From Xanthomonas tesorieronis (GTDB taxonomy: Bacteria > Pseudomonadota > Gammaproteobacteria > Xanthomonadales > Xanthomonadaceae), in contig NZ_CP162490.1 of the NCBI RefSeq assembly GCF_041245805.1, forward strand, positions 347,336-411,335: a stretch of DNA of 64,000 nt. The letters are read 5' to 3'. Made by a program: the position numbers and the translations under genes. Below, piece after piece: positions 14,808 to 59,770 of the stretch. Under the pieces are notes generated by a model. That model ran no database searches. It was not told the origin of the DNA and was given only the letters and a program-made list of their open reading frames with translations. Each line of letters opens with the position of its first letter. The first letter of the stretch is position 1.

Positions 14808-14833
14808 GCCCACCAAGAACCCTCGAGCTGCCC

Positions 14834-33009: not shown

Positions 33010-33010
33010 G

Positions 33011-45972: not shown

Positions 45973-46059
45973 GCGCCGATGGTAGCAGCGGCGCCGGCCG
46001 GCTTCAGCGTGGCGTGCCGCGTGCTTCCGGTGTGCGCAAGCCGTCCGGCGCCGCGAAGC

Positions 46060-47088
46060 CTAGCGCTTGACCAGCTCGACCCTGCGGTTTTGCGCCTTGC
46101 CCGCTTCGTTCGCATTGTCGGCTACCGGATCGGCGTCGCCAAACCCGGCAGAAGACAATCTGGAGGCATCGATGCCCTGGGCTGTAATGGCAGCGGCGAC
46201 GGCCTTGGCGCGGCCTTCCGACAGCGTCTTGTTGTGCGCCGGGTCGCCGGTGTTGTCGGTGTAGCCGTTCACGGCCAACTTCAGCGACGCATCCTGCCTG
46301 AGCAACTGCACGACCTGCTCGATCTGCGGCTGCGAGTCCGGCAGGATGTCGGTCTTGTCGGTGGCGAAGTTGACGTGCAATGCCACCTTGCCGGTCTTGT
46401 CGATCTGCGCCTTCAGTTCGCTGGCCGGCAGCACGCTGGCGGTGATTTCCAGCGGCTTGGTTTCGGCGATCAGCAGTCCGCCGCCGAACTGGTAGCTGCA
46501 CAGGTGGATCCAGATGTCGCGATCGGCGCGATGCACGACGAATACCTGCGTGGGATTGTTCCAGACATCGCCCAGGCCGCTGTTGTACTTGACCGCGAAG
46601 TCGCGCGGCCATTCCTTGATTTTCTGCCCGGCCTGCTCGGGAATCTTGCCGTCGAAGATCTTCTTGCCGCCCAGCGAAGCGACCACCGCTTCGATGTTGC
46701 GTTCCAATTCCACGTCCGAGAAGGTCTTGCCTTGCGCGGCATCGATGTGCGCCGACCAGACCTTGCCTTCCACCGTTTCCAGGCGATCGCCTGTCCAGAA
46801 CGGCACCTGGTCGAAATCGGCGAGATCCGGCGTGCTTCCGGTGACGTAGCCGTTGGGAAGGGCGATATACGGGAACGCGCCCAGCGGTACGCTCGACACC
46901 GGCAGGCTGGACGCATCGAAGCCCTTGGCGGCTGCCTCCTGCTGAGGTTGCGACGCCGGCGGACTGCTGGCCGCAGCCGCGGACGCGGCGGCATGCCCGT
47001 CGTTTTGCGCCGGTTGCTGCTGCTTCTTGCAGGCACCAAGACCCAGGGTGATCGCTACAACCAACGTCGCCGCTACTGCCTTTTTCAC
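46060..47088 (-). CDS. OmpA-family lipoprotein
   Basis: Lipobox LGAC after the GTG start (AGGAG 7 nt upstream) and a C-terminal OmpA domain (NGYTDNTGDP…NRRVEL). Confidence 0.8.
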   Translation of the reverse strand: MKKAVAATLVVAITLGLGACKKQQQPAQNDGHAAASAAAASSPPASQPQQEAAAKGFDASSLPVSSVPLGAFPYIALPNGYVTGSTPDLADFDQVPFWTGDRLETVEGKVWSAHIDAAQGKTFSDVELERNIEAVVASLGGKKIFDGKIPEQAGQKIKEWPRDFAVKYNSGLGDVWNNPTQVFVVHRADRDIWIHLCSYQFGGGLLIAETKPLEITASVLPASELKAQIDKTGKVALHVNFATDKTDILPDSQPQIEQVVQLLRQDASLKLAVNGYTDNTGDPAHNKTLSEGRAKAVAAAITAQGIDASRLSSAGFGDADPVADNANEAGKAQNRRVELVKR

Positions 47089-47218
47089 AGAGGTACTCCT
47101 TGCCGGGGGACGAAAAAACAGTGTAGCCGCGAACCCGGCCGATCTTCCTGCGCCACGATGAACACCGATCGATCGACGACGCGAAATGGCACGCGGCGCA
47201 AGCCGCCGGCGCGCGCGA

Positions 47219-47827
47219 CTAGCGGGTCGGCTCGGGCGGCTGGAACAGCGCATCGGGTTGCGGGCGGTATTCCACGCGCTGGATGTCCCACTGCTGCTGT
47301 TGTTGCAGGCCGGTCTTGCCGCGATATGCGAGCACCAGGCCGGTGTCGCGATCCAGCCACATCGTGCCCTGCCGGGTCATGCCGGGGCCGCCCGCATTGG
47401 AAAGCCGGTATCGCCACTGCACCGCGGGCCGGCCGGCATGGACGCCGATATCGGCACGTTGGCAGTCGGCGAACATGCCCAGGCCGGCGCACGGCTGTTC
47501 CGGGTCGAAGCGCAGCGGCCAGCGCATGCCGGGCACCGGCATGCCGTCGCCCTGCTGTCCCACGATCCAGCCAACGGGTGCGTCCTTGGTCAGGATCAAC
47601 GCGTACGGCGTACCGCTGGCGTCCTTGAACTGCACGCGCAGCGCATCGTCGCGGAAATACAGGGTCACCGGCTGCGGCGCGTCCTTGGGGCGGATCCGGC
47701 TCAATCCGCTCAGCTGGTTGGTCGTCACCTCGGCCACGCCGGAGAACGGAAACTCCTCGGCGCGCGTGCTTTGCGCAAGCGCAGGGGAGATCGCGAGCGC
47801 ACATGCCAGCACCGAACGCCAAAGCAT
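47219..47827 (-). CDS. Secreted hypothetical protein (last gene of the Tad-like operon)
   Basis: Signal peptide MLWRSVLACALAISPALA. The start overlaps the upstream stop (TGATG). Confidence 0.5.
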   Translation of the reverse strand: MLWRSVLACALAISPALAQSTRAEEFPFSGVAEVTTNQLSGLSRIRPKDAPQPVTLYFRDDALRVQFKDASGTPYALILTKDAPVGWIVGQQGDGMPVPGMRWPLRFDPEQPCAGLGMFADCQRADIGVHAGRPAVQWRYRLSNAGGPGMTRQGTMWLDRDTGLVLAYRGKTGLQQQQQWDIQRVEYRPQPDALFQPPEPTR

Positions 47828-48501
47828 CACTTGTCCAGATTGCCCTGTTTGTAGATCGGCGATTGCATGCGCACGATCGCATAGCTTTCGATCGGCAAGC
47901 GATTGGTCAGCGGTTGCAGCGTCGAGGATTCGAAGGTGCCTGGCTTGAGGTACTGGGACTTCCCCCCCAGTACCCAGCCAACGAACGGCACTACCAGCGG
48001 CGCGTCGTAGACGACTTTGACTTTCAGGATGTTGGCGTCCTGGACATTGACGCCGCTGCTGCCGACCGCGGTGCTGCGATAGGCGAGCGTATCGTTGGGC
48101 AGGGCGTACTGGCCGTTGTACTGCCGCTCCTTGAAGTTGCCCCATGCCGCGCGCGTCGGGTTGATCACGGTGATGTGCCCGCGCCTGAGCACGTTCAAGT
48201 CCGCATACGCCTTGCCATACGCGACTTCCAATGCGACCTGCCCGGTCTCATTGGAGTAGAGCGGCATCATGCCCTTGGCGAAGCTCCTCTGCATTTCGCC
48301 GCGGTCCACGCCGGTTACCGCGCCTGTGCGCGCGACCATCAGCGCGGCGTAATCGAGCGTCGTCTTCATTCGGTACAACAGCACCGCCTGGATGACCGCC
48401 AGCAGCAGGAACAGCAGGACCGGGGTGATGATCACCAGTTCCACCATGGATTGGCCGCGCATCGAGCGCCGGCTGCGCAATTCCCGCATACGTGTTTTCA
48501 T
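47827..48501 (-). CDS. TadE/TadG-like pilus assembly protein (pseudopilin)
   Basis: N-terminus RGQSMVELVIITPVLLFLLLAV is a TadE-like motif. ATGA overlap with the upstream DUF192 gene. Confidence 0.7.
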   Translation of the reverse strand: MKTRMRELRSRRSMRGQSMVELVIITPVLLFLLLAVIQAVLLYRMKTTLDYAALMVARTGAVTGVDRGEMQRSFAKGMMPLYSNETGQVALEVAYGKAYADLNVLRRGHITVINPTRAAWGNFKERQYNGQYALPNDTLAYRSTAVGSSGVNVQDANILKVKVVYDAPLVVPFVGWVLGGKSQYLKPGTFESSTLQPLTNRLPIESYAIVRMQSPIYKQGNLDK

Positions 48502-48887
48502 GACCATGCTCCGGTGTCGGGCGGCGGCGCGACCGTTGCGGTGCGCCAGCGCCACTGTTCGCCTTGCTGCGGCTGCAGCCGGTCCAGCGCGCCGCCATGG
48601 AATTCGACGGTGGCCACGGCGCGCCGGCAGGCCGCGGCGCGGTACGGCCTGACGTTCTCGCGCCATTCCAGCACGACGTCGTCGCGCGCGAGGAACACCA
48701 GGTCCAACGGGTAGGCCATGCCGATGGTGTGCACACTGGCGCAGGGCCGGATCAACAGGGCTTCCGATCCGTCCTCGGCCAGTGCCGGCCGGGCCAGCAA
48801 GCCGCGCATCCGCGACCACCAGGTGTCGGCGGACCACACGTGCGGGATGGGAGCGCCCCCGCTGCGCTCGATGTGCCCGTGCTTCAC
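48498..48887 (-). CDS. DUF192 domain protein
   Basis: SVHTIGMAYPLDLVFLARDDVV…ENVRPY…VEFHGG is typical of DUF192. The GTG start overlaps the tadC stop (GTGA). MRGLL is an alternative start. Confidence 0.55.
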   Translation of the reverse strand: MKHGHIERSGGAPIPHVWSADTWWSRMRGLLARPALAEDGSEALLIRPCASVHTIGMAYPLDLVFLARDDVVLEWRENVRPYRAAACRRAVATVEFHGGALDRLQPQQGEQWRWRTATVAPPPDTGAWS

Positions 48888-49774
48888 AGGATTCCCTCCT
48901 GCAACATCTTCAAGTAGATGAAGTAGCCCAGGAACAGGAAGATCAGCGGGAAGAAGAACATCACCAGCGGCAGCATCATCTTCACCGGCGCCTCCAGCGC
49001 CAGCTTCTCCGCGCGCAGGAAGCGCTCTTCGCGGCGCTGGTTGGCCTGCGCGCGCAGGGTGTCGCTCAAGTTGGCGCCGACCTTGTCTGCCTGAATCAGC
49101 GCGCTGGTGAAGCTGGTGATCTGGCCGATGTCCATGCGCTCGGCCATGCGCCGCAGCGCTTCGGCCCTGGGAAGTCCGGCACGCAGATCGCGGAGCATGC
49201 GCGAGAACTCCTGCGACAGCGCACCGGCCGGGCCCTTGGCCACGGCCTGCTCGATGCCGCCGGTCACATTCAAGCCGGCTTCCACCGACATGGTGATGAA
49301 ATCCAGGTAGACCGGCAGGTCGCGCACCACTGCCTTCTGCCGCGCCTTGCGGCGTTCGCCCAACCACAGCACGGGGTAGAGCCAACCCAGCACGCCCCCG
49401 AAGAACAGGCACATCAGCCCCGCGCCGACCGCGAGCTTGCCGAGCATCGCCGTGCACAGCAGGAACACCGCGGTCACCACGATCGCGCTGGCCATGCGCA
49501 GGCCGTAGAACTCTTCCGGGGTCAGGGTGAAGTCCTGTCCGGCCGCCTGCAGTTGGCGATGGGTCTGCTCGAGCTGGGTGACGCTGAGGTGCGGCGCGAT
49601 GCGGCGCGTCAGCACCGTCACCAGTGGCCACATCAACTGCATCAGGCGCGGCAGCGGGTCGTAGTAAGTACGGTCCTCCAGCTCGACTTCGCGGATCACC
49701 CCGCGCGTGCCGATGATCACCAGCGCGACGGCGCCGGCAGCCAGAAGAGCGACGAGGGCGAGCATCCAGGTCAT
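48884..49774 (-). CDS. tadC: Flp pilus assembly protein TadC (T2SS-F domain)
   Basis: Type II secretion F-domain membrane protein. ATGA overlap with tadB. Confidence 0.8.
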   Translation of the reverse strand: MTWMLALVALLAAGAVALVIIGTRGVIREVELEDRTYYDPLPRLMQLMWPLVTVLTRRIAPHLSVTQLEQTHRQLQAAGQDFTLTPEEFYGLRMASAIVVTAVFLLCTAMLGKLAVGAGLMCLFFGGVLGWLYPVLWLGERRKARQKAVVRDLPVYLDFITMSVEAGLNVTGGIEQAVAKGPAGALSQEFSRMLRDLRAGLPRAEALRRMAERMDIGQITSFTSALIQADKVGANLSDTLRAQANQRREERFLRAEKLALEAPVKMMLPLVMFFFPLIFLFLGYFIYLKMLQEGIL

Positions 49775-50619
49775 ACGTCGATCGTCATGATCTTCTTGCA
49801 GAGGCGATAGCCCAGATATTCCATGATCAGGCAGATGGTGATCACCACCCATCCGTGCCAGCTGTGGAACATGGGCTGCATGGTTTCGCTGTACATCAGG
49901 CTCAGATAGCCGATCAGGAAGACCGGCAGCATCGCCATGACGATGCCCTGCAACCGGCCTTGCGCGGTCAGCGACTTGACCTTCTTTTCCATGGTCAGGC
50001 GCCGGCGCAGCGTTTCGGCCAGCGTCGCCAGGGTTTCGGCCAGGTTGCCGCCGACCTCGCGCGAGATGTTCACCGCCGACACGAACAGCTCGGCGTCGGT
50101 GATCGGCACCCGCTTGCTGAAGTTTTCCATCGCCTCTTCGGCGCGGATGCCCATGTGCTGCTCACGCAGCACCAGCGCCAGTTCCTGCGCCAGCGGCGGC
50201 TGGCCGTCGTGCACCAGCACTTCCATCGCCGGCGCGAAGCCCACGCCGGCACGCAGGCTGCTGGACAGCATCTGCAACGCATCCGGGAGCTGCTCCTGGA
50301 TCCTCTCCAGCCGCCGCCGGCGCAGATACGCATAGATCTTGCGGGGCGCGAAGATCAGGAAGATGCCGATCAGCACCGCGATGACCAGGCTGCCGGTCAG
50401 CATCCAGATGAGCAGCGGGATGATCACCATCACCACGGCGCTGACCATGTAGACCTGCGCGGGGTCCATGAACAGGAACATGTCCGCCAGGTTCATGCGC
50501 GCCTGGTCCATGAAGCTCTCGCGGTAGCGCTTCATGAACCGCTCGCCGGAACGCGCAACCAGCAGAACGCCCATCAAGGCGCCGCCGAACACCAGCAAGG
50601 CGATCAACCACAGGGCCAT
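49771..50619 (-). CDS. tadB: Flp pilus assembly protein TadB (T2SS-F domain)
   Basis: T2SS-F-domain polytopic membrane protein; 282 aa. Confidence 0.8.
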   Translation of the reverse strand: MALWLIALLVFGGALMGVLLVARSGERFMKRYRESFMDQARMNLADMFLFMDPAQVYMVSAVVMVIIPLLIWMLTGSLVIAVLIGIFLIFAPRKIYAYLRRRRLERIQEQLPDALQMLSSSLRAGVGFAPAMEVLVHDGQPPLAQELALVLREQHMGIRAEEAMENFSKRVPITDAELFVSAVNISREVGGNLAETLATLAETLRRRLTMEKKVKSLTAQGRLQGIVMAMLPVFLIGYLSLMYSETMQPMFHSWHGWVVITICLIMEYLGYRLCKKIMTIDV

Positions 50620-52361
50620 CAGCGCGTACTTCCCTGGTTGCGGAAAATATCCAGATTCACCGGCACGCCGCGTTCGGCCAGCTCCTCGTAGAATTCGGGC
50701 ACCGCGCCGGTCGCCACGAAATTGCCGGCGACCTTGCCGTCCGGTCCGTGGTAGGTGGTCGGCTTGAACAGGAACAGGTCCTGCATCTGGATGGTGCCGC
50801 TTTCGATGCCGGTGATTTCGGTGATGTGGCTGACCTTGCGCGACCCGCAGGGATAGCGGCGCTGATGCACGATGAGGTTGACCGCCGAGGCGATCTGCTC
50901 GCGCACGACCGTCATCGGCAGCTCCATGCCGGCCATCATCACCATCACTTCCAGACGCGACAGCGTTTCGCGCGGATTGTTGGCGTGCGCCGTGGTCAAC
51001 GACCCTTCATGGCCGGTGTTCATGGCCTGCAGCATGTCCAGGCTCTCGCCTCCGCGACACTCGCCGACCACGATCCGGTCGGGGCGCATGCGCAACGCGT
51101 TCTTGACCAGGTCGCGGATGGTGATCTGGCCCTTGCCTTCCATGTTCGCGGGGCGGGCCTCCAATGCGACCAGGTTCGGCTGCACGAGCTTCAGTTCGGC
51201 CGCGTCCTCGATGGTGACGACGCGGTCGCCATCGGGAATGAAGTTCGACAGGATGTTCAACAGCGTGGTCTTGCCCGAGCCGGTACCGCCGGACACCACG
51301 ATGTTGCGGCGCTCGCGCACGGCCATGATCAGGAAGTCCAGCATCGGCTGGTTCAAGGAGCCGTATTTCAACAAGTCTTCGCCCATCAAGCGGCGCGTGG
51401 CGAATTTGCGGATGCTGATGCTCGGCCCGCGCAGGGCCACCGGCGGGATCACCGCGTTCACACGCGAGCCGTCCTTCAGGCGCGCATCGACGAGCGGCGA
51501 GCTTTCGTCGATGCGCCGGCCCAACGGGGTGACGATGCGTTCGATCGCCGCCAGGCAGGCGCGTTCGTTGGAGAACACCACCTCCGACTTCTGGATGCGC
51601 CCGGCCCGCTCGATGAAGATATCGTCGTGGGCATTGACCATGATTTCGGTGACGGTCGGATCCTCGATCAGATCTTCCAGCGGCCCCAGACCGATGGCTT
51701 CGTCCAGCACCTGTTTGGCCAGGCGGCGCGGATTGATGTCAGAGGGCAGGTCGGCGAACTCGCGCGCGAGGATGTCGTCGATCAGATTGATGGTGCTGTC
51801 GCGAAGCGCGCTGTCGTCCATGCTGCGCACGTCCATCCGGCGCAGGTCCATTTGCCGGACCAGCGCCATGTGCAGCTTGGTGCGCCAGGTGGCGATATCC
51901 GGCGGTGGCGGGCCGGCCAGCACCAAGTCGGTGGACGCCGGCGCGGCCGCCTGGGCTGCGGACGCCGCGTCGGCCGACGTCGTTGCAGGTTCGGCTACAC
52001 GCGCGGCGATGCCATCGTTGGCTGCCGGGGTGTGCTTGGCGATCCGCGCATCGTCGCCACTGACCTTGAGCACGTAGTGTCCGATGCGGATCTCGTCCTT
52101 GCCGTCGATCGGACCCTGCTTGGCCAGGACGACCTTGCCGTTGAGCGTGATCGGCTCGCGCCCGCCCAAGGGCAGGATGAAGACACCCTCGTCTTCGCGC
52201 AGCAGCGTGGCATGCTTGCCGGCGATATTCCAGCCCTGGAGCATTACCAGGTTCGCGTCGGCGCGCCCGATGCCGCACTCCCGATGCATGCATTTGACCT
52301 GGCGAGTATCGCGGCCCGGCGTATTGATCAGCACTGTGAACATGACGATGACCTTCCGCAC
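50619..52361 (-). CDS. CpaF/TadA-type pilus assembly ATPase with an N-terminal FHA domain
   Basis: FHA motifs (GIGRADANLV, KHATLL, NGKVV, GDEIRIG) occupy the first ~100 aa. These are followed by a CpaF ATPase (GGTGSGKTT Walker A, with Asp and His boxes); 580 aa. Confidence 0.85.
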   Translation of the reverse strand: MRKVIVMFTVLINTPGRDTRQVKCMHRECGIGRADANLVMLQGWNIAGKHATLLREDEGVFILPLGGREPITLNGKVVLAKQGPIDGKDEIRIGHYVLKVSGDDARIAKHTPAANDGIAARVAEPATTSADAASAAQAAAPASTDLVLAGPPPPDIATWRTKLHMALVRQMDLRRMDVRSMDDSALRDSTINLIDDILAREFADLPSDINPRRLAKQVLDEAIGLGPLEDLIEDPTVTEIMVNAHDDIFIERAGRIQKSEVVFSNERACLAAIERIVTPLGRRIDESSPLVDARLKDGSRVNAVIPPVALRGPSISIRKFATRRLMGEDLLKYGSLNQPMLDFLIMAVRERRNIVVSGGTGSGKTTLLNILSNFIPDGDRVVTIEDAAELKLVQPNLVALEARPANMEGKGQITIRDLVKNALRMRPDRIVVGECRGGESLDMLQAMNTGHEGSLTTAHANNPRETLSRLEVMVMMAGMELPMTVVREQIASAVNLIVHQRRYPCGSRKVSHITEITGIESGTIQMQDLFLFKPTTYHGPDGKVAGNFVATGAVPEFYEELAERGVPVNLDIFRNQGSTR

Positions 52362-52374
52362 TACGTGGGGTGGA

Positions 52375-53955
52375 TTACTTGATCAACTTTTCCTGCCTGG
52401 GGCTGATCTCGTCCTGCAGGCCCTTTTCCATCGCGTCGCCGCGCTGCAGGTCCTGCAGATTCTCCGGCGAGGTCGGACTGACGATGCGCGGGGTCACGAA
52501 GATCACCAGTTCGGTCTTGTTGCCGCGAAACCCGTCGGAGCGGAACAGCTTGCCCAGGATCGGGATGTCGCCGAGGATCGGCAGCTTGTCCACGGCTTTG
52601 GAGGCCTCGCGGTCGAGCAGGCCGGAGATGACGATGGTCTGGCCGGCGTTGACGTTGATTTCGGTCTCGGCACGCCGCGTCAGGAAGCCCGGCACGCCCT
52701 GCACCGACACCGAAGGATCGATCCTGCTGACCTCCGCCATGATCGAGGTGTTCACCTGATTGGAAGAGTTGACCGTCGGGTTGATGTTGAGGCGGATGCC
52801 GTATTCCTTGTATTCGATCTGGGTCTGCCCTAGCACCGACGGCACCACGATCGGCACTTCGCCGCCGACCAGGAACGAGGCGCTGCTGCCGCTCTTGGCG
52901 CTGAGTTTCGGCTGGGCCAGCACCCACGCCTTGCCACGGCTCATCAGCAGGTTGATCTGCGAGCCGATGGTGGTGGCGATGCCGAAGTAGCCCTGCGGTC
53001 CGGGCAGCTTGGTGGGCAATGTGTCCTTGACGTCCTGAAACGTCTGGTTGTTCTCGGGAAGCACGCGGAAGTAGCCGTTGCTGGTGACATCGCGGATCAA
53101 TCCGCCGATCGGACCGTCGATCGTGGTGTCCCAACGGATACCCAGGTCTTCCACCGCGTTCTTGTTGAACTCCATGATGGAAACGTCCATCTGGATCATC
53201 GGCCGCATGCCGACCGGATCGGCGCCGGCAAAGTTCAGGACCTGCGGATAGAGCTTCTGCAATGCCTGGATCTTTGCGGTGGTGGCCGCATCGATGTCGT
53301 TGCCCGAGATGACGACATTGGAGCCGATCGCCCGCACGGTGACCCCAGGCGTATTGCCCAGCAGCTCGCGCACGGTCTCGGCCACGCCTTCCGACTTGCC
53401 GCCCGTCACCGTCACGCTGACGTCGCGCTGGCTGCCGTCCGCCATCCACAGATGCACATTGGTGTCGCCGGGTTTGGTGCCGATCATGACCAGTTCGGAC
53501 TTGCCGACCGAGAACACGCTGAGCACTTCGCCATCGCCGACCGCGATGCGGCGCAGGGCGCCGTGCACGCGGCGAACCACGGCCTCGCCCGCATAGACGG
53601 TTTGGGCAGGCTGCAACGGCGGCGCCACGGACGGCTTCTTGTCGCCAGCCAGGGCGACGCCGCCCGAGGCTGTACCCGCTCCCAGTTCCTGGATCTGCGA
53701 TTCGGCCGCACGCTTGAGCTGGTCGACCTGGCGACCTTGCGCGATCAACCGCGCCTGTTCGGCCGCCGCCTCGTCCGACGGTGCGCCGGCGGCGGGTGCC
53801 GCTGCAGGATGCGCGGTCTTTGCCGTGGCTGGTGTGGCGGCCTGCTGGGCCGACGCATTGAGGCCTCCAATTCCCGCCAACAGGAGGCCGGCCAGCCACG
53901 CCGCCGATCTACCTGCCTTGTTTCCGCTACGTCCTGTTGCTTGCCTCATGCTCAA
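52375..53955 (-). CDS. cpaC: CpaC/RcpA-type secretin
   Basis: C-terminal secretin domain (LVGGEVPIVV…VNVNAGQTIVISGLL…TELVIFVTPRIV) and a signal peptide. Confidence 0.85.
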   Translation of the reverse strand: MSMRQATGRSGNKAGRSAAWLAGLLLAGIGGLNASAQQAATPATAKTAHPAAAPAAGAPSDEAAAEQARLIAQGRQVDQLKRAAESQIQELGAGTASGGVALAGDKKPSVAPPLQPAQTVYAGEAVVRRVHGALRRIAVGDGEVLSVFSVGKSELVMIGTKPGDTNVHLWMADGSQRDVSVTVTGGKSEGVAETVRELLGNTPGVTVRAIGSNVVISGNDIDAATTAKIQALQKLYPQVLNFAGADPVGMRPMIQMDVSIMEFNKNAVEDLGIRWDTTIDGPIGGLIRDVTSNGYFRVLPENNQTFQDVKDTLPTKLPGPQGYFGIATTIGSQINLLMSRGKAWVLAQPKLSAKSGSSASFLVGGEVPIVVPSVLGQTQIEYKEYGIRLNINPTVNSSNQVNTSIMAEVSRIDPSVSVQGVPGFLTRRAETEINVNAGQTIVISGLLDREASKAVDKLPILGDIPILGKLFRSDGFRGNKTELVIFVTPRIVSPTSPENLQDLQRGDAMEKGLQDEISPRQEKLIK

Positions 53956-54785
53956 CCCTTTCCGCCAATGATGAACTCAACGCGGCTGCTTCCGGTGCCG
54001 GTGCTTTCCGGATCGCCCGATCCCAGCGATCGCAGTAATTGACTCTCGCTCATGCCTGTCGCCGCGCCGGGCGAGGTGTCCTGAAGTTCGCGCAGCAGTA
54101 CACGCACTGCGCCCACCTTCGAGGCCATGGCCAACTGCTTGGCCTGGTACTGGTCCAGTTCCAGGGTGACGCTGGAGAATCCGGCCGATTCGTTCGACTC
54201 CTCTCCCTCCTTCGGCGTCGGCACATCGCCGATCCGGCTGCCGGCGGCCAGGACCTTGATCTTCTGCAGCAGCGGAAATACCTGGGCGCCGCTGCCCGAA
54301 CCGGGGGCGCCGCTGGTGGAGGCATCCTTCACGAAGAAGATGTCGATGAGGTCGCCCGGGGCGATCATGCCGGAGATCGAGTTGTTCTCGTCCACGCTCA
54401 TCGTGTAGGCGACCTTGCCCTTGGGAATCAGCCGGGAGAACTGTTCGTACAAGGGCACCAGCGCGCTGGCGCTCAGCGGTGCGCCGCCACGGGCCGGAGC
54501 GCGCAGCATGCGGCCTTCGTACTGGCCGTGGTTTTCCGGCGTGACCGCATCGGCAGGCGCGAATTCGGCAGGAATCGGCCGCGATGCCAGATCGCTGCCC
54601 TGCAGGATCGCGCCCTGCGGCAGGTCATTCACCGGCACGGCCACCTCGACCATGGGCCGCGTGTCCTGGGTGCGCTCGGCGACGGTGTTGCGGATGTAGC
54701 TCACTGCGATGAAGGCGGCGAAAGCCGCCATCACCACGGCGATCAGGATGAACAGGACGTTCTTGCTGAGTTTTGGTTTCTGCAT
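53952..54785 (-). CDS. cpaB: CpaB/RcpC Flp pilus assembly protein
   Basis: N-terminal TM anchor, then SAF/CpaB domains. ATGA overlap with cpaC. Confidence 0.8.
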   Translation of the reverse strand: MQKPKLSKNVLFILIAVVMAAFAAFIAVSYIRNTVAERTQDTRPMVEVAVPVNDLPQGAILQGSDLASRPIPAEFAPADAVTPENHGQYEGRMLRAPARGGAPLSASALVPLYEQFSRLIPKGKVAYTMSVDENNSISGMIAPGDLIDIFFVKDASTSGAPGSGSGAQVFPLLQKIKVLAAGSRIGDVPTPKEGEESNESAGFSSVTLELDQYQAKQLAMASKVGAVRVLLRELQDTSPGAATGMSESQLLRSLGSGDPESTGTGSSRVEFIIGGKG

Positions 54786-54827
54786 GAAGAGTTGCCGTCG
54801 AGGCAGGCCGTGGCGAGGGAATGGAGG

Positions 54828-55022
54828 TCAACCCACCAGGATGTCGGACGCCGAGATGGCGTAGACAAAGGCGGCATAGAGGTCTTTCAGGGCGGTGACC
54901 ACGTCGGTGATCACGTTCGGGTTGGCGATCAACACGATCACCAGCGCCATCACCACCACGGTGTATTCGATCGTGGATTGACCGCGTTGGGTGCGCTTGC
55001 GGGGCATGGCGGCGCGGATCAT
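54828..55022 (-). CDS. Small Flp-motif protein (64 aa, candidate minor pilin or pseudopilin)
   Basis: QRG/QSTIEYTVVVMALVIV matches the G-x4-EY Flp/TadE processing motif followed by a hydrophobic helix. ATGA overlap with the upstream gene. Confidence 0.5.
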   Translation of the reverse strand: MIRAAMPRKRTQRGQSTIEYTVVVMALVIVLIANPNVITDVVTALKDLYAAFVYAISASDILVG

Positions 55023-55711
55023 TCGACCACCGCCACGACCACGGTGCCGGTCTTGCCGCGGCTGGACGTCACCGTCACGCGGTCTTCCTGGCGGATGAAG
55101 CGGCCGACGCAATGCGGACTGGTCGCCGCGCAGGCCGACGAGGAGCCATCCCGCACGTAGCCTTGCGCTGCGAAGTAGCGGGTGTAGTACTGCTGATTCT
55201 GCAGCGGCGTATAGCGGTTGAGCATGCTCAAGGTCCTGACATGGCGCGGCGTGTCCATGTAGACGATGTCTTCGGCGACCTGCGTATCCGGCAGCCGTCC
55301 GAAGCCCTTGCCGACGCCGTCCGCCGGCAGGTCTTTCTTCGGCAGCTGCATGACGCCGATCTGGCCGCGCGTGCTGGTGGCGTCTCCGCTCAATTCGACA
55401 GTGACGTAATAGCCGCCTGCTTCCATGTGGCCGAGCACGGTCTTGTTGCCCATGGGAGTGGCCACGACCCCCTTGCCCCATTCCTGTCGATAGAACTGTT
55501 CCACCTGACGCGGCGGTGCGGCCACGGTGAAACGGCTGGCGCGCATCGAAACGCCGTTGTAGACCATGTGCTCGGACACGATCTCGCCGGAGGCCTGATC
55601 CGGCACAGGCACATCCGGCCAATCCGCAGCGCGTGCAGGGTGGGCGGCGAGCCCCAACAGGACCGGGCCCACCATCTGCGCGAGCAGGCGGCTGGAAGGT
55701 CGCCCGCTCAT
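55019..55711 (-). CDS. Secreted hypothetical protein (Tad locus)
   Basis: Signal peptide (LLAQMVGPVLLGLAAHPARAA). Coupled by ATGA overlaps on both sides. Confidence 0.5.
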   Translation of the reverse strand: MSGRPSSRLLAQMVGPVLLGLAAHPARAADWPDVPVPDQASGEIVSEHMVYNGVSMRASRFTVAAPPRQVEQFYRQEWGKGVVATPMGNKTVLGHMEAGGYYVTVELSGDATSTRGQIGVMQLPKKDLPADGVGKGFGRLPDTQVAEDIVYMDTPRHVRTLSMLNRYTPLQNQQYYTRYFAAQGYVRDGSSSACAATSPHCVGRFIRQEDRVTVTSSRGKTGTVVVAVVE

Positions 55712-56529
55712 TGCTTGACCGGGTAATTGGCCAGCTTGTCCGCGGGGACGACATCCGGCTCGATCGTGCCGATTTCCAGATCGCCGAGCGATCCCACCAT
55801 CGGCATGATCGGCTCCAGCACCTTCAGGGTGTCGAAGATGCCGTCCAGCCCTTCGAAATACGACAGCGGCGCCAACGGCTTCACGGTGCTGACCACGCTG
55901 CGCGGTCCGCTGCGTGGGCCGGACGCATTCCAGGCATCCGCCAGCAGGGTCTGGTGGCGTTTGTCGACCAGGTTGAGGCTGTCCAGCGGCTCCAGGAAAT
56001 GCGCCGGCCGGCCATCGGCGGTCTTCAGGTCGCGGTAGTTCAGCGATACTTCTGCGCTGACGTAGCCCTTCCGATTGGGCGGGAAGGCATTGTCGAAATA
56101 ATTTTTCGGCAACAGCGTCGCCGCTTCGTCGACGTAGCCGGGTGAATTGGCGTTGGCGGTCCGCGTGATCGACAGGTCGTTCTTTTCCAGCAACTTCCTG
56201 TTCGAAAACGTATTGAGCATCTGGTCGCCGAACGCACCGCTGCTGTTGCCGGAGGTGGCCGATTTGATCGGCGCATCGGCATCGGCGAAATTGCGGTCGA
56301 GCGCCTTGCTCTGCAATGCGCCCCGGCTGGGCGGCTGGTAGTTGTTGGCTACCGTGGCTTCCCAGGCGGCATTGCGCGCGGCCTGCATTGCCATCTGCTT
56401 GCCGTGCCCGAGCTTGGCCACGACCGGGATCAGCAGAAAGAGCGGGACCAGCACGGCGGCGCAAACGGCCAGTTCCACCATGCCTTGCCCGCGCATGCTG
56501 CGCGGCGACGCAACGGACATCGTTTTCAT
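55708..56529 (-). CDS. TadE/TadG-like pseudopilin
   Basis: MRGQGMVELAVCAAVLVPLFLLIPVV is a TadE-like N-terminus; 273 aa. Confidence 0.65.
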   Translation of the reverse strand: MKTMSVASPRSMRGQGMVELAVCAAVLVPLFLLIPVVAKLGHGKQMAMQAARNAAWEATVANNYQPPSRGALQSKALDRNFADADAPIKSATSGNSSGAFGDQMLNTFSNRKLLEKNDLSITRTANANSPGYVDEAATLLPKNYFDNAFPPNRKGYVSAEVSLNYRDLKTADGRPAHFLEPLDSLNLVDKRHQTLLADAWNASGPRSGPRSVVSTVKPLAPLSYFEGLDGIFDTLKVLEPIMPMVGSLGDLEIGTIEPDVVPADKLANYPVKQ

Positions 56530-57332
56530 CCTGCCTGCTCCTTGCCCGTCACCTCGCCGGCGGGGTCCTCGGGAAGCAGCCCCTTGCCGAGGCTGAACGA
56601 CTTGACCTGCAGCAGGCAGCCATTCCCGCCTTGCAGCGGCTTGGCTTCCAGCGGAATGGAATTCAGGTAGCTGCCCGCGCTGTCCACCGTGCAACCCGCC
56701 ACGTCGGCCGGCGCCTCGCCGAACCCCCACTTCATGCCGCCGGACCACATGCAGACCTCCTGCTGACCGTTTTGCCAGCGTGTGCACGGCTGGCCCTTGA
56801 TCTGGCCCTCGCCCATGAGCTTCCAGCCGGTGCCCTGTACGTCCTGGCGTTCCTGGGAACGTGCGCCGCTGTCGATCGCCTGGTACATGCCGGTCGCGTC
56901 TTCGATCGCGTCGTGGTCCTCGTGTTGCTCAAGCTTGGCGAGGCAGGCGCTTCGCCCGTCTTCGCCATCGGCGCCAAGCGTCCAGCTGACCTGATGCGCG
57001 AACTGGCGCCGCGCGTCGATCATGATCTCGACTTCGCCGGTCCCCAGCTTGGCTTCTTCCTGCGGCGATAGCGCGCGCATCGGCATGCCGGAGCCGCTGC
57101 AGGCGTCCATCTTGGCGTGATAGTTCTTGCGCTCCATGTTCTCGCCGCCCAGGCGCGATTCCCAGGCCAGAACGACATGCAGCGCGGGCAGTGACTTGGC
57201 GCCGTCGTCGGATGCCGAGGCGTCCGTCAGGCCGCCTTCGGCTGCATCGCGCGAATGGCAGCCGCCGGTGAAGGCAAGCAACGCAACGCAGCCTGCGGCC
57301 AGGACGCGGAATCTTTGTTCGAACAACATCAT
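56526..57332 (-). CDS. Hypothetical lipoprotein (Tad locus)
   Basis: Lipobox-like AFTGGC after the ATG at 57332. ATGA overlaps with neighbours on both sides. Confidence 0.5.
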   Translation of the reverse strand: MMLFEQRFRVLAAGCVALLAFTGGCHSRDAAEGGLTDASASDDGAKSLPALHVVLAWESRLGGENMERKNYHAKMDACSGSGMPMRALSPQEEAKLGTGEVEIMIDARRQFAHQVSWTLGADGEDGRSACLAKLEQHEDHDAIEDATGMYQAIDSGARSQERQDVQGTGWKLMGEGQIKGQPCTRWQNGQQEVCMWSGGMKWGFGEAPADVAGCTVDSAGSYLNSIPLEAKPLQGGNGCLLQVKSFSLGKGLLPEDPAGEVTGKEQAG

Positions 57333-58771
57333 GGAGCGGCCACCAAAAGAGTGCGATCCGCCACTGGCGTCTGCACCAGGCGGGCCTGCCAATACGGACT
57401 GAACAAACTGCCCTTTTCGAATTTCCCGTCGCCTTTGCCCCAGACCGAACGCCGGAAGGCGGCCAGTTCATAAGGGCGGTTGAAATAGACCTGCGCGCTG
57501 GCCATCGCGCGCAACTGGTTTCCGCGCGCCTCGTCCTTCAGTTCCATGCGGCCACGCCCGATCTTCAGCGTGGAACTGGTGCGCGCCTTTTCGATCTTGG
57601 TACCCACCTCGACCGTGTAGATCGGCCCGGCATTGGCGCCTTCGGGGGTCTGCGAATAGGTGCTCTTGACATCGTGATACTGCGGGCTGATGCCATAGCG
57701 GTAGCCGTTGAAGAAGGCCTTGTCGCGCTTGAAGTCCTCCCTGACGGCTGGATCGGCTTCGATGAACCGGCCGGCGATGTCGCTGCGCTTGGTGCCGTTG
57801 TAGGCCTTGTAGGTCCGGTTGTCGTACGGCGATTTCCATCCACGCCCGTTATTCATCCCGCCGAAGAAATTCGGCTTGCGGCCATCGACGGCCTGGGTGC
57901 CGCCCCAGCCGAGCGGAATCTTGACGTCGTCGAGCGGCCAGGGAAGCGGCAGCTTGAACTGAAATGCATCCACGGCCGACCAGCGATCGTATTCGACCAT
58001 GTCCGTGCCGCCGTTGTTGTTGAACACCCCGAAGGCCGTGCCGTCGCGGGCTCGCGTAAAGGTGTCGCGCGATGCCATGACCACGTTGCGGTAGCGCTCG
58101 CCGCCGGGATTGGTGCTGGTCAGGCCTTTACGCTGGCCGGGGCTGTAGCGTTCCAGCTGGTTGCCCGCCGAGACCACGTTCTTGGCCAGCACGCCCTTGC
58201 CGACCAGGGTCAGCTCCGCATCCGGTGCGTTGTCCTTGACCACCTTGTTGGCGAGGAGGAAGACGTTGGCTTCCGAAGCGAGCGTGCCGACCGCCGCGTC
58301 CGCCGCGAGCGCATACGGGTGATCCAGCACCTGGTCCAGTACGCGGATTTCGCCGTTCGCCACTTCCATGAAGCCTTGCCGGAAGACCTTCAGCGCCTTG
58401 TTGATCGCGGTCATGGCGCGGTCGAGTGCGATCAGCACCTCGCCCAGGCCGGGCACCCAGAACAACAAGGTTTCGGCGACCTTGGTGAATTCCCCGAAAT
58501 GCACGGAGGTGGAGTGCACCATGGTCAGCCACGAATTCAGACTGACCGTTTGCGCGATCGCCACTTCGTTGGCGACGCGTCCGCGGTTCAAGTAAGCGGC
58601 GAAGTTGCGCGCGCGTGCCTGCTCGACCGCAATGCTGTACGCAGCGGCATCGGCGGCATTGGTGATTTCCACCTTCTTGCCGACGACCTGTCCGGTGTTG
58701 AAGGTCACCAACAGGCCGACGCACAGCACCATCAAGAATGCCAGCACCATCGGCATCGACTGCCCCGACAT
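57329..58771 (-). CDS. TadG-like large pilus assembly protein or pseudopilin
   Basis: N-terminus SGQSMPMVLAFLMVLCVGLLV is a TadE/G-like motif; about 480 aa with a VWA-like body. Confidence 0.65.
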   Translation of the reverse strand: MSGQSMPMVLAFLMVLCVGLLVTFNTGQVVGKKVEITNAADAAAYSIAVEQARARNFAAYLNRGRVANEVAIAQTVSLNSWLTMVHSTSVHFGEFTKVAETLLFWVPGLGEVLIALDRAMTAINKALKVFRQGFMEVANGEIRVLDQVLDHPYALAADAAVGTLASEANVFLLANKVVKDNAPDAELTLVGKGVLAKNVVSAGNQLERYSPGQRKGLTSTNPGGERYRNVVMASRDTFTRARDGTAFGVFNNNGGTDMVEYDRWSAVDAFQFKLPLPWPLDDVKIPLGWGGTQAVDGRKPNFFGGMNNGRGWKSPYDNRTYKAYNGTKRSDIAGRFIEADPAVREDFKRDKAFFNGYRYGISPQYHDVKSTYSQTPEGANAGPIYTVEVGTKIEKARTSSTLKIGRGRMELKDEARGNQLRAMASAQVYFNRPYELAAFRRSVWGKGDGKFEKGSLFSPYWQARLVQTPVADRTLLVAAP

Positions 58772-58963
58772 GTCGGAACGGACGCGTCCCAGCCGTGGCG
58801 TAACGCCCCTGGTAGACGGATCGGCGGCGGCGATGATCCCCATCTGGTGTCCTTCCGGAAAAACGCCGTGCGAAGAACGCCATGGATGCGTTCAGCTCGG
58901 CTGGGTCCATTTAGAGGTGTTTGAAAAAACGCCGAGGCGTGCCCACGGCGGTGACGACGACAG

Positions 58964-58995
58964 GCCACCATCTGCCCGGCCGGGCAGATGGTGGC
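58964..58995 (-). terminator. Perfect 16-bp stem hairpin immediately downstream of the flp pilin gene (candidate attenuator)
   Basis: GCCACCATCTGCCCGG paired with CCGGGCAGATGGTGGC, with no clear U-tract. Confidence 0.4.
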
Positions 58996-59002
58996 GAAGG
59001 CC

Positions 59003-59281
59003 TTACTTGTTGCCGTTGTACGCGGCCATGCCCTTGTCCTTGTCGGCCTGACTCTGCGCCTTGCCGGCGTTGGTACCGGCGCGGTTGATCATCTGGCTAG
59101 CGTCCTGCTTGCCAGACAGCTCCTGCGCCATGCCGGCGACCTGGCTGCGGACGGTGCCGCCGAAGAAGGTAAACACGCCGATGGCGGCGATCGCGATCAG
59201 GGCCACGATGATGATGTACTCGGTCATGCCCTGGCCGAGCTGCTTACGGCCGAAACGAATATGCCTGCGTTGGTTCTTCAT
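59003..59281 (-). CDS. flp: Flp-family type IVb pilin (92 aa, with a C-terminal extension)
   Basis: GQGMTEYIIIVALIAIAAIGVF matches the G-x4-EY Flp motif. AAGGAGAGG RBS. First gene of the locus. Confidence 0.75.
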   Translation of the reverse strand: MKNQRRHIRFGRKQLGQGMTEYIIIVALIAIAAIGVFTFFGGTVRSQVAGMAQELSGKQDASQMINRAGTNAGKAQSQADKDKGMAAYNGNK

Positions 59282-59770
59282 TGAATCCTCTCCTTGGCTC
59301 TGGCGCCCACTGGACCGGCAGCACACTTACGTCCGCGCGGCGCGTGTAGGCGTGTGGGTTGCATACGTGAAAAGTGCACAGATTATGAAACTGATCCTTG
59401 GCCCGCATTTGACATCGGCTGACAAATGTATCTCGGACGGCGCCACTTTAGCGTCAACAAATTGCCGGAACAAGAAAACTAGCGTTAATGTTTTGACACA
59501 TTGTGGAATGCATATCCCGGAACTGAGTCAAACTCTAGGCGCACCGTTCTATGAATTGATTCACTCTGTGCTGATTCCGGGATGCCGGGATGCAGAGTCG
59601 ATTTAAAAGCGCGTCGCGTTCGACGTCGCGAGTTCTTGACTAAACAAAACAGCCGGCCGGTTTTTATTTTTTATGAATAGGGAATCCAAGCCGGATTCAC
59701 CGAGATCGGCTGGATAAATCTTGCGTAATAATAGGGATAAATATCCCAAAATTTAGCGGTCTGCCAAAAG
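59282..59770 (-). promoter_or_regulatory. AT-rich promoter/leader region of the flp-tad operon
   Basis: About 490 bp of non-coding DNA with much lower GC than the flanks and several TTGACA-like hexamers. Confidence 0.3.

What the first reader, a model, noticed from the sequence alone, without database searches (positions are those of the whole stretch)
50619..52361. Traffic ATPase with an N-terminal FHA domain (FHA-CpaF fusion)
CpaF/TadA ATPases normally begin with a short N-terminal region. Here the first ~100 aa form a clear forkhead-associated phosphothreonine-binding domain before the Walker A box. An FHA domain on the motor implies control of pilus assembly by Ser/Thr-kinase signalling or by docking to a phosphorylated partner. 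This may replace the missing TadZ/CpaE localisation factor.
Basis: seen in the sequence. Interest (0 to 1): 0.55.

Follow-up and report, generated by a model that had tools for sequence, protein, structure and literature searches.

The report
Pilus motor ATPase with degenerate FHA domain
A Xanthomonas adhesion-pilus motor carries an extra N-terminal FHA docking domain; this architecture is already published, but this FHA lacks key phosphothreonine-binding residues and occurs only in pilus loci without the usual TadZ positioning protein.

Summary
The minus-strand gene 50619-52343 (the true start is ATG 52343, not GTG 52361) encodes a 574-aa CpaF/TadA ATPase. Residues 1-97 are an FHA domain (Pfam 27.2 bits against a cutoff of 20.7; the AF2 model matches only FHA structures). 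A roughly 50-aa disordered linker, a helical bundle and an intact ATPase core follow.

The architecture is not new. It is the published 'class III CpaF' (Nat Commun 2025), and Myxococcus KilF has it too. At least 115 of the 120 closest database relatives, all Lysobacteraceae-type, carry it.

Two refinements came out of this work.

- The FHA is degenerate. The Ser and Asn that hold phosphothreonine are never present in 118 relatives (A/G and A/E/S/T/V instead), an invariant LQGW loop replaces them, and beta/gamma-proteobacterial relatives often have Lys or Ser instead of the Arg. No kinase or phosphatase was found among about 50 scanned ORFs of the window.
- In 82 CpaF loci, 0 of 27 FHA-CpaF loci encode TadZ/CpaE, against about 51 of 55 others. 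Eight of those others fuse TadZ to the same N-terminus. The FHA clade is nearly monophyletic, so this reflects few independent events.

Best reading: a tethered, probably phospho-independent docking module in TadZ's place. This is inferred, not shown.

The parts
50619..52343 (-). FHA-CpaF/TadA motor ATPase, 574 aa (class III CpaF).
   Evidence: Pfam FHA plus T2SSE. RBS and ATG. 99% identical to a Xanthomonas translucens protein named CpaF.
52053..52343 (-). FHA-fold domain, residues 1-97. G26-R27 and H44 are kept. The canonical Ser is A41, and the canonical S-x-N is G61-R62-E63.
52230..52241 (-). Invariant LQGW motif (residues 35-38) in the loop that normally leads to the phosphothreonine-binding Ser.
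   Evidence: Q36, G37 and W38 are each present in 118 of 118 aligned relatives, and L35 is invariant in the 30-sequence alignment. The W is shared with beta- and gamma-proteobacterial FHA-CpaFs. AF2 confidence is below 50 for residues 30-39.
51903..52052 (-). Ala/Pro-rich disordered linker, residues 98-147, variable in length and sequence.
   Evidence: pLDDT 25-31 over most of it. This is the gappy, unconserved block of alignment A1.
51693..51902 (-). Helical region, residues about 148-217, corresponding to the three-helix bundle of CpaF.
   Evidence: Helices 150-164, 177-195 and 205-217. Domain scheme from PMC12019362.
50835..51692 (-). T2SSE ATPase core. Walker A is GGTGSGKTT (51264-51290), Asp box 51192-51218, Walker B 51051-51080, His box 50979-51017.
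   Evidence: Pfam T2SSE 209 bits. Motif positions. Motif residues are invariant in A1.
59003..59281 (-). Flp-type major pilin with a G|MTEY processing motif.
   Evidence: Translation. Weak Flp_Fap hit. tblastn from the L002 Flp gene.
57329..58843 (-). TadG-like pseudopilin. Homologues were found only in FHA-CpaF loci.
   Evidence: Pfam Tad. Distribution across loci.
56526..57332 (-). Lipoprotein of unknown function (lipobox FTGGC).
   Evidence: Translation. Homologous to the 287-aa gene of L002.
55708..56529 (-). TadE-like pseudopilin, about 271 aa.
   Evidence: Pfam TadE just below the cutoff (22.0 against 22.9 bits). tblastn.
55019..55693 (-). Conserved protein of unknown function, about 223 aa.
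   Evidence: tblastn from L002.
54828..55025 (-). Second small pilin-like gene with a G|QSTIEY motif.
   Evidence: Translation. tblastn.
53952..54785 (-). CpaB/RcpC.
   Evidence: Pfam RcpC plus SAF. TIGR03177 137.7 bits.
52375..53955 (-). CpaC/RcpA secretin.
   Evidence: Pfam Secretin plus T2SS-T3SS_pil_N.
49771..50619 (-). TadB platform protein. Its ATG overlaps the CpaF stop codon (TGATG).
   Evidence: Pfam T2SSF. Sequence.
48884..49774 (-). TadC platform protein.
   Evidence: Pfam T2SSF. tblastn start.
48498..48866 (-). DUF192-family gene.
   Evidence: tblastn from the L002 DUF192 gene. Pfam label of that gene.
47827..48486 (-). TadE pseudopilin.
   Evidence: Pfam TadE 40.3 bits. tblastn.
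47219..47797 (-). Conserved protein of unknown function, about 195 aa.
   Evidence: tblastn.
46060..47253 (-). OmpA-like peptidoglycan-binding protein linked to the locus, as in Stenotrophomonas and Lysobacter.
   Evidence: Pfam OmpA..

Best explanation
This is the single motor ATPase (TadA/CpaF) of a complete Tad-like (type IVc) Flp-pilus operon in a clade-I Xanthomonas. It belongs to the published 'class III' CpaF architecture: FHA, disordered linker, three-helix bundle, N-domain and ATPase domain.

Shown here:
- The ATPase motifs are intact.
- The FHA fold is real, translated and conserved.
- The operon and its orthologues in other genera lack TadZ/CpaE and a prepilin peptidase.
- The canonical phosphothreonine-gripping Ser and Asn are absent from the FHA. 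A family-specific invariant LQGW loop takes their place, together with a conserved basic residue at position 62.

Inferred:
- The FHA, tethered by its flexible linker, acts as a protein-protein docking module. It recruits, positions or gates the hexameric motor at the TadB/TadC platform or at a cellular landmark.
- It therefore occupies the functional slot that TadZ/CpaE fills in canonical Tad systems, whether TadZ is separate or fused to the same N-terminus.
- It most likely binds its partner without canonical phosphothreonine recognition, as the FHA-like domains of the T3SS proteins YscD/PscD do.
For: Identity and completeness
- Pfam and NCBIfam hits.
- Walker A, Asp, Walker B and His boxes are invariant.
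- The operon runs from Flp to TadE and has the same order in Stenotrophomonas and Lysobacter.

FHA fold
-.

Degenerate pocket
- The profile-to-EmbR alignment is ungapped and maps R312/S326/R327/S347/N348 to R27/A41/G42/R62/E63.
- Substitution of R312, S326 or N348 blocks PknH-dependent phosphorylation of EmbR (PMC8636726).
- Position 41 is A or G and position 63 is A/E/S/T/V in 118 of 118 relatives. R27, W38 and H44 are 118 of 118.
- More distant beta- and gamma-proteobacterial FHA-CpaFs keep the W and A/G/Q, and have Lys or Ser at the Arg position in 6 of 15 (fragments).
- Two of them no longer reach the Pfam FHA model (L005, L004).

No partner kinase
- No Pkinase or PP2C in the Pfam-scanned ORFs of the window or in a motif scan of all window, L001 and L002 ORFs.
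- No second FHA protein in any proteobacterial FHA-CpaF locus, unlike most Myxococcota, Lentisphaerae and delta-type loci in the sample.

TadZ slot
- 0 of 27 FHA-CpaF loci have a strong TadZ/CpaE hit. 45 of 55 others do, and about 51 of 55 do once Pfam-checked fusions and weaker adjacent ParA-like genes are counted (Fisher p about 1e-13).
- Eight relatives carry a ParA-like TadZ domain fused at the same N-terminal position.
- In Bdellovibrio TadZA, the fused TadZ region plus linker binds the polarity hub RomR (bioRxiv 10.64898/2026.07.08.737194).
Against: - No experiment on any class III FHA was found in the literature searched.
- R27 is invariant in the Lysobacteraceae-type relatives and R/K62 is nearly so. 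A non-canonical phosphate or acidic-peptide site therefore cannot be excluded.
- The FHA/TadZ exclusivity is phylogenetically almost a single event. The FHA clade is nearly monophyletic in the NJ tree, so the Fisher p overstates independence.
- Only 10 kb on each side of each locus was examined. TadZ or a kinase could be encoded elsewhere in the genome.
- The sample of loci was truncated and ranked by similarity to the query.
- Residue mapping rests on sequence alignment, not on a superposed structure.
Confidence: 0.5

Rival explanations
1. Canonical phospho-signalling reader. A Hanks-type Ser/Thr kinase encoded elsewhere phosphorylates a Tad component or the linker. The FHA binds that phosphothreonine and switches pilus assembly on, as Fha1/PpkA does for the Pseudomonas T6SS.
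For: - FHA fold with invariant G26-R27 and H44.
- A conserved basic residue at position 62 could help bind phosphate.
- The Myxococcota, Lentisphaerae and delta-type FHA-CpaFs mostly keep the canonical residues (fully in 6 of 12, Ser plus Asn in 7), and 8 of 12 sit near other FHA proteins. The ancestral function may therefore have been phospho-dependent.
- One related locus (L003) has a Pkinase plus cNMP-binding gene 6.5 kb upstream.
- Both papers that mention the fusion assume phosphothreonine binding or signalling.
Against: - Ser to A/G and Asn to A/E/S/T/V without exception in 118 relatives.
- The equivalent EmbR substitutions hinder phosphorylation by PknH.
- Arg is Lys or Ser in 6 of 15 beta- and gamma-proteobacterial members, and Lys in several related fragments.
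- No kinase or phosphatase in the window's scanned ORFs or in L001 and L002.
- No conserved Thr-containing motif is apparent in the variable linker.
Confidence: 0.2
2. Cis-acting regulator. The tethered FHA folds back on its own linker, three-helix bundle or ATPase ring. It would control hexamer assembly or the switch between extension and retraction, rather than recruit the motor to a partner.
For: - The FHA is joined by a flexible linker of about 50 aa.
- In Caulobacter, truncating the CpaF disordered region impairs both extension and retraction (section title in PMC12019362).
- OdhI and GarA, which appear among the structural matches, are known from the literature (my own knowledge) to self-bind their N-terminal tail.
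Against: - This does not by itself explain the loss of TadZ from the loci.
- The linker sequence is not conserved, so a specific cis ligand within it is unlikely.
- No direct test was possible with these tools.
Confidence: 0.2
3. Annotation artefact or vestige. Translation starts downstream, at M19 or after the linker, or the FHA is a decaying relic without function.
For: - Several public annotations start at M19, giving 555-557 aa.
- The Pfam score is modest at 27.2 bits.
Against: - The Shine-Dalgarno sequence is correctly spaced before ATG 52343.
- M1, F2, R14 and C18 are conserved, and strands 1-2 lie upstream of M19 with pLDDT above 80.
- The FHA region has a normal coding signature and third-position-biased divergence.
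- 24 invariant positions are maintained across genera.
Confidence: 0.03

Closest known systems
Class III CpaF (Nat Commun 2025, PMC12019362; exemplar Achromobacter xylosoxidans E3HIW0)
   Same: Same domain order: N-terminal FHA, disordered linker, three-helix bundle, N-domain and ATPase domain. Beta-proteobacterial members recovered here share the G[RK]..GW..[AG]..HA variant of the FHA.
   Different: The paper says class III is mostly beta-proteobacterial and describes the FHA as phosphothreonine-binding. It does not mention TadZ/CpaE. Here the protein is gamma-proteobacterial (Lysobacteraceae-wide), the pocket residues are degenerate, and the loci lack TadZ.
KilF, ATPase of the Myxococcus xanthus Kil (Tad-like) prey-killing system (eLife 2021, PMC8460266)
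   Same: A Tad-type ATPase fused to an N-terminal FHA. Myxococcota FHA-CpaFs fall in the same NJ clade as the window protein, and their loci also lack TadZ.
   Different: Myxococcota, Lentisphaerae and delta-type relatives mostly keep the canonical GR/SRxH/SxNGT residues, and most sit among further FHA proteins. Kil genes are split over two clusters, with a short secretin lacking N0 and no TadG. The window has one compact operon, a 526-aa secretin with an N-terminal pilus-formation domain, a TadG-like gene and no other FHA protein.
TadZA (TadZ-TadA fusion) of Bdellovibrio bacteriovorus (bioRxiv 10.64898/2026.07.08.737194)
   Same: An accessory module is fused by a flexible linker to the N-terminus of the Tad ATPase. 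There is no separate TadZ and no TadV in the tad loci. Comparable fusions lie next to the FHA clade in the tree.
   Different: The module there is a ParA/MinD-like TadZ domain that binds RomR. Here it is an FHA fold with an unknown partner.
Cytoplasmic FHA-like domains of the T3SS inner-ring proteins YscD/PscD (Pfam Yop-YscD_cpl)
   Same: FHA fold in a secretion or pilus machine. They appear among the structural matches (4a0e, 6uid, 4d9v), and the precomputed Pfam domains for most relatives include PF16697. From my own knowledge, they act without phosphothreonine recognition.
   Different: Those domains are part of a membrane ring protein, not an ATPase. For the window protein the PF16697 score is below the cutoff (23.6 against 33.2 bits).
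Canonical CpaF/TadA with a separate TadZ/CpaE (Caulobacter class II, Aggregatibacter class I)
   Same: Same ATPase core and the same platform, secretin and CpaB partners.
   Different: No FHA. A TadZ/CpaE gene lies immediately upstream in most FHA-less loci sampled.

Membership tests
CpaF/TadA secretion ATPase (Pfam T2SSE) | T2SSE domain above the Pfam gathering score | tested here: met
   209.2 bits against a cutoff of 24.9, residues 218-503.
CpaF/TadA secretion ATPase (Pfam T2SSE) | Walker A, Asp box, Walker B and His box intact | tested here: met
   GGTGSGKTT 352-360, VTIEDAAEL, DRIVVGECRG and TGHEGSLTTAHAN. All are conserved in 30 relatives.
CpaF/TadA secretion ATPase (Pfam T2SSE) | Encoded in an operon with Flp pilin, CpaB, CpaC secretin, TadB and TadC | tested here: met
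FHA domain (PF00498) | Profile match above the gathering score and an FHA beta-sandwich fold | tested here: met
   27.2 bits against 20.7. AF2 pLDDT 78.9. All 50 listed PDB structural matches are FHA or FHA-like domains.
FHA domain (PF00498), canonical phosphothreonine-binding subtype | Conserved Gly-Arg (EmbR R312) and His (EmbR H329) | tested here: met
   G26-R27 and H44 are invariant in the Lysobacteraceae-type relatives. Arg is Lys or Ser in some more distant relatives.
FHA domain (PF00498), canonical phosphothreonine-binding subtype | Ser of the SxxH motif (EmbR S326) that contacts the phosphate | tested here: not met
   A41 in the window. A (91) or G (27) in 118 relatives, never Ser.
FHA domain (PF00498), canonical phosphothreonine-binding subtype | S/T-x-Asn of the beta6-beta7 loop (EmbR S346-S347-N348) | tested here: not met
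   G61-R62-E63 in the window. Position 63 is A/E/S/T/V and never Asn in 118 relatives.
FHA domain (PF00498), canonical phosphothreonine-binding subtype | Actual binding of phosphothreonine peptides | not testable with these tools
   Needs ITC or a peptide array with the purified domain.
Class III CpaF (PMC12019362) | N-terminal FHA joined by a disordered region to the three-helix bundle, N-domain and ATPase domain | tested here: met
   FHA 1-97, low-confidence variable linker 98-147, helices 150-217, then T2SSE. Definition.
Kil-type Tad-like killing system (PMC8460266) | Several additional FHA-domain proteins in the clusters | tested here: not met
   An FHA HMM finds only the ATPase in the window and in every proteobacterial FHA-CpaF locus.
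Kil-type Tad-like killing system (PMC8460266) | Short secretin lacking the N0 domain, no TadG, genes split over two clusters | tested here: not met
   526-aa secretin with a T2SS-T3SS_pil_N domain, a TadG-like gene present, and a single operon. Criteria. N0 itself was not modelled.
Canonical TadZ-dependent Tad system | TadZ/CpaE (ParA/MinD-like) gene in the locus | tested here: not met
   No CbiA, AAA_31 or ParA hit in any window ORF scanned. The CpaE HMM finds nothing in the window, L001 or L002. The rest of the genome was not searchable.
Canonical TadZ-dependent Tad system | Dedicated prepilin peptidase TadV/CpaA in the locus | tested here: not met
   No peptidase A24 hit among the locus ORFs or in L001 and L002.

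The most novel reading that the evidence does not exclude
FHA-CpaF systems may form a deep, TadZ-independent lineage of Tad-like machines. In that lineage the FHA module took over TadZ's recruitment and positioning role. In the beta- and gamma-proteobacterial branch the FHA would have become a phospho-independent adaptor that binds its partner through the invariant LQGW loop. That would make it a previously undescribed FHA subtype and a new way of localising or licensing a type IV filament motor.
Probability: 0.3. Interest if true: 0.55.

Novelty: new member of a known kind. Interest (0 to 1): 0.35.

Why it matters
How Tad pili are positioned and switched on is understood mainly through TadZ/CpaE. 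A large, taxonomically broad group of Tad-like loci has no TadZ and carries an FHA on the motor instead. It includes the plant pathogens Xanthomonas translucens and X. sacchari and the opportunist Stenotrophomonas maltophilia.

If the FHA is the substitute hub, it gives a compact handle of about 100 aa (R27, W38) for dissecting motor recruitment. The data here also caution against reading every bacterial FHA as evidence of Ser/Thr-kinase control.

The fusion itself is already published and annotated. The value lies in the refinement, not in the discovery.

Tried and rejected
1. Profile search of the FHA domain against 1.84 billion representatives. Beyond N-terminal fragments of this family, the top hits were generic canonical FHA proteins, such as Myxococcota double-FHA/TPR proteins. 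Only one further FHA-ATPase (P0140) was identified among the 150 listed hits. It was not useful for tracing class III diversity.

2. Full-length AF2 with 30 close homologues gave mean pLDDT 49.5, so the ATPase part is unusable. Only the N-terminal domain was used, and it was re-predicted alone.

Taxonomic placement therefore rests on the source names.

4. Regex searches for Hanks kinases and PP2C in 82 loci found a kinase near only two FHA-CpaF genes (L003, L028) and no PP2C near any. Regex is insensitive, so this is weak negative evidence outside the Pfam-scanned window.

5. I considered that one of the unannotated locus ORFs could be a cryptic TadZ. They have no ParA-like signal. One has a lipobox and others have pilin-like leaders, so they are probably exported.

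6. Literature searches for TadZ or CpaE together with FHA, for forkhead-associated with TadA and Flp pilus, for Xanthomonas with Tad pilus or CpaF, and for Stenotrophomonas with Tad/Flp/CpaF found no functional study of a class III FHA.

7. I rejected the idea that the FHA/TadZ exclusivity is many independent events. The NJ tree shows about one or two origins.
Full report
**Observation**

The window is high-GC DNA (about 0.61-0.75 in 2-kb windows). The closest protein matches come from clade-I Xanthomonas: 99% to X. translucens, 98% to X. bonasiae and 93% to X. sacchari.

A minus-strand ORF spans 50619-52361. An ATG at 52343 is preceded by GGAAGG with an 8-nt spacer. Every full-length homologue begins MF at this position. 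In distant loci the reading frame opens only 1-5 codons upstream of the equivalent Met. The protein is therefore 574 aa.

Pfam finds FHA (PF00498) at residues 25-88 with 27.2 bits against a cutoff of 20.7. It finds T2SSE at residues 218-503 with 209 bits.

The FHA codons have the same GC1/GC2/GC3 pattern as the rest of the gene. Their divergence from orthologues is concentrated at third positions.

An AF2 model of residues 1-99 has pLDDT 78.9 and pTM 0.74, and is a beta sandwich. All 50 listed Foldseek matches in the PDB are FHA or FHA-like domains.

The full-length model is poor overall. It still shows residues 98-147 as disordered, followed by three helices at about residues 150-217. The ATPase motifs are intact.

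The only corrections concern the start codon and the fact that about 250 residues separate the FHA from Walker A.

**Genomic context**

All genes lie on the minus strand, in this order:
- Flp pilin with a G|MTEY motif
- TadG-like protein
- a lipoprotein
- a TadE-like protein
- a protein of unknown function
- a second small pilin
- CpaB
- CpaC secretin
- FHA-CpaF
- TadB, whose start overlaps the CpaF stop as TGATG
- TadC
- a DUF192 gene
- TadE
- a protein of unknown function
- an OmpA-like protein

This map rests. The same gene set, in the same order apart from the OmpA-like gene (which lies at the opposite end), occurs in Stenotrophomonas maltophilia (L001) and Lysobacter korlensis (L002).

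About 50 ORFs across the window were scanned against Pfam. None is a ParA/MinD-like TadZ/CpaE, a prepilin peptidase, a Hanks kinase or a PP2C phosphatase.

**What is already known**

The architecture is published. PMC12019362 (Nat Commun 2025) sorts CpaF orthologues into three classes. [quoted passage not shown]

PMC8460266 (eLife 2021) notes that Myxococcus KilF is 'fused to an N-terminal FHA domain'.

Of the 120 closest database proteins, at least 115 carry precomputed FHA or YscD-like domains together with T2SSE. They come from Xanthomonas, Thermomonas, Pseudoxanthomonas, Luteimonas, Lysobacter and Stenotrophomonas. Some are already named 'FHA domain-containing protein'.

Neither paper tests the FHA, and neither mentions TadZ/CpaE. 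Further literature searches found no functional study.

**The FHA pocket is degenerate**

A profile of the N-terminal domain aligns without gaps to solved FHA domains. In EmbR, substitution of R312, S326 or N348 prevents PknH-dependent phosphorylation. S326, R327 and S347 hold the phosphate (PMC8636726). The window residues map as follows:

| EmbR residue | Window residue |
|---|---|
| R312 | R27 |
| S326 | A41 |
| R327 | G42 |
| S347 | R62 |
| N348 | E63 |

In 118 aligned relatives the states are as follows:

| Position | Residues seen |
|---|---|
| 41 | A (91) or G (27), never Ser |
| 63 | A, E, S, T or V, never Asn |
| 27 (R), 38 (W), 44 (H) | invariant |
| 62 | R or K in 116 |

W38 belongs to an invariant LQGW motif in the loop that normally leads to the Ser. 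AF2 models this loop poorly even though it is invariant.

**Two kinds of FHA-CpaF**

I aligned 27 FHA-CpaFs from other phyla. They fall into two kinds.

- Beta- and gamma-proteobacterial members come from Acidithiobacillus, Granulosicoccus, Variovorax, Polaromonas, Hydrogenophaga, Alcaligenaceae and the Lysobacteraceae (L001, L002 and the window). They share G[RK]..[GS]W.[VI][AGQ]..HA, with Lys or Ser at the Arg position in 6 of 15. Two of them no longer reach the Pfam FHA model.
- Myxococcota, Lentisphaerae and delta-type members mostly keep the canonical GR, VSRxHA and SxNGT motifs. Six of the 12 keep all of them, and seven keep both the Ser and the Asn. Eight of the 12 have further FHA proteins in the locus. 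The proteobacterial loci have none.

A motif scan for Hanks kinases found one near only two FHA-CpaF genes, L003 and L028. The L003 hit was confirmed by Pfam as Pkinase plus cNMP-binding.

Kinase control is therefore not supported for this protein. A non-canonical phosphate or acidic-ligand site built from R27 and R/K62 cannot be excluded.

**FHA and TadZ are mutually exclusive in this sample**

I built a CpaE/TadZ HMM from ParA-like ORFs lying directly upstream of CpaF. Two seeds were checked by Pfam: L045 has Response_reg plus AAA_31/CbiA/ParA, and L077 has AAA_31/CbiA.

Results across the 82 loci:
- None of the 27 FHA-CpaF loci has a hit of 100 bits or more. Three have weak hits of 19-39 bits, two of them several kb from the ATPase gene.
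- 45 of the 55 FHA-less loci have a strong hit.
- Three more FHA-less loci are Pfam-confirmed N-terminal ParA-like fusions, and three have a weaker ParA-like gene directly upstream. That brings the total to about 51 of 55.
- Of the remaining four, two have truncated upstream sequence.

Fisher's exact test gives p of about 1e-13. This overstates the evidence, because an NJ tree of the ATPase core shows the FHA proteins as one nearly monophyletic clade, with L036 as an outlier. The pattern amounts to one or two evolutionary events.

Eight ATPases carry a TadZ-like domain fused at the same N-terminal position: L013, L015, L020, L030, L040, L051, L069 and L079. They branch next to the FHA clade in the tree.

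This fusion is known from Bdellovibrio as TadZA. There the TadZ region plus linker binds the polarity hub RomR. The tad loci also lack TadV, and PilD processed Flp when co-expressed in E. coli. That offers a plausible explanation for the missing peptidase here too.

**Mechanism**

Shown: this is an intact Tad motor ATPase carrying a conserved, translated, tethered FHA fold. The locus has no TadZ. The canonical phosphothreonine-binding residues are missing.

Inferred: the FHA plus linker is a docking or recruitment module occupying TadZ's slot, and it probably acts without phosphothreonine. My confidence in the whole statement is about 0.5. For the identity as class III CpaF alone it is above 0.95.

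Rivals:
- a canonical phospho-reader using a distant kinase (0.2)
- a cis-acting regulator of the ring (0.2)
- an annotation artefact or vestige (0.03)

**Novelty and score**

The finding as stated, an FHA-CpaF fusion, is a new member of a known and published class. The two refinements (degenerate pocket, FHA/TadZ exclusivity) were not found in the literature I could search. They are correlative. Interest is 0.35.

Noticed in passing
L013:4011-6173, L015:9245-11404, L020:9116-11272, L030:9182-11422, L040:9122-11434, L051:9218-11545, L069:4785-6998, L079:9128-11287: Eight CpaF relatives are single ORFs of 719-776 aa (stop-to-stop lengths) with an N-terminal ParA/CbiA-like (TadZ) domain fused to the ATPase (Pfam). 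They include Bdellovibrionales MAGs. This matches the 'TadZA' fusion recently described in Bdellovibrio, and they branch beside the FHA clade.
   Followed up: partly
window 46060-59281: The Tad-like operon has no prepilin peptidase (TadV/CpaA), and neither do its Stenotrophomonas and Lysobacter counterparts. Flp processing presumably relies on a peptidase encoded elsewhere, as reported for PilD in Bdellovibrio.
   Followed up: partly
window 54828-55025 and 59003-59281: There are two pilin-like genes with Flp-type leader and cleavage motifs: GQG|MTEY in the 92-aa Flp, and G|QSTIEY in a pilin of about 65 aa just upstream of cpaB.
   Followed up: partly
window 46000-60000: The Tad region has lower GC (0.605-0.654) than most of its flanks. 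The flank at 40-46 kb is 0.709-0.748 and the flank at 60-64 kb is 0.677. This may point to horizontal acquisition. X. sacchari entries also include a second protein only about 73% identical (P0078, P0079), which suggests two such loci in some strains.
   Followed up: no
window 52290-52343 (residues 1-18): Many public annotations of the orthologue start at M19 (555-557 aa). That removes the first two beta strands of the FHA. This is likely a systematic start-site mis-annotation.
   Followed up: yes
window 52230-52256 (residues 30-38): The most conserved loop of the FHA (ANLVxLQGW) is the only part of the domain that AF2 models with pLDDT below 50. This would be consistent with a loop that becomes ordered only when a partner binds.
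   Followed up: no
window 13494-17431: A cNMP-binding GGDEF protein (13494-14807) is followed on the same strand by a long ORF ending at 17431. The plausible N-terminus of that ORF (MNDVHQ...LLLTDLCDSMALVERLGD) looks like a class III nucleotide cyclase followed by TPR-like repeats. From memory, this resembles the Xanthomonas cGMP to c-di-GMP signalling pair. It was not scanned.
   Followed up: no
window 1662-2633: An IS110-family transposase (DEDD_Tnp_IS110 plus Transposase_20).
   Followed up: no
window 32933-33074: tRNA-Lys (CTT) lies at 32933-33009. Directly beside it at 33012-33074 is a second tRNA-like match (Rfam 39.9 bits) that ARAGORN does not call. It could be a degraded duplicate or an integration-site remnant. 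The adjacent Band_7 ORF as listed abuts the tRNA, so its real start is probably further downstream.
   Followed up: no
L003:2127-3467: Among the genome-contig loci, which returned no Lysobacteraceae, L003 is the one most similar to the window protein. It has a Pkinase plus cNMP-binding gene 6.5 kb upstream of its FHA-CpaF, although its FHA is also degenerate (GK, W, Gly at the Ser position). The contig is labelled Streptomycetaceae, which is probably a binning error.
   Followed up: partly
window 57329-58843: Homologues of the TadG-like protein were found only in FHA-CpaF loci: 14 of 27, against 0 of 55 FHA-less loci (phmmer, E below 1e-4). It is a second lineage marker for this Tad subtype.
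   Followed up: partly
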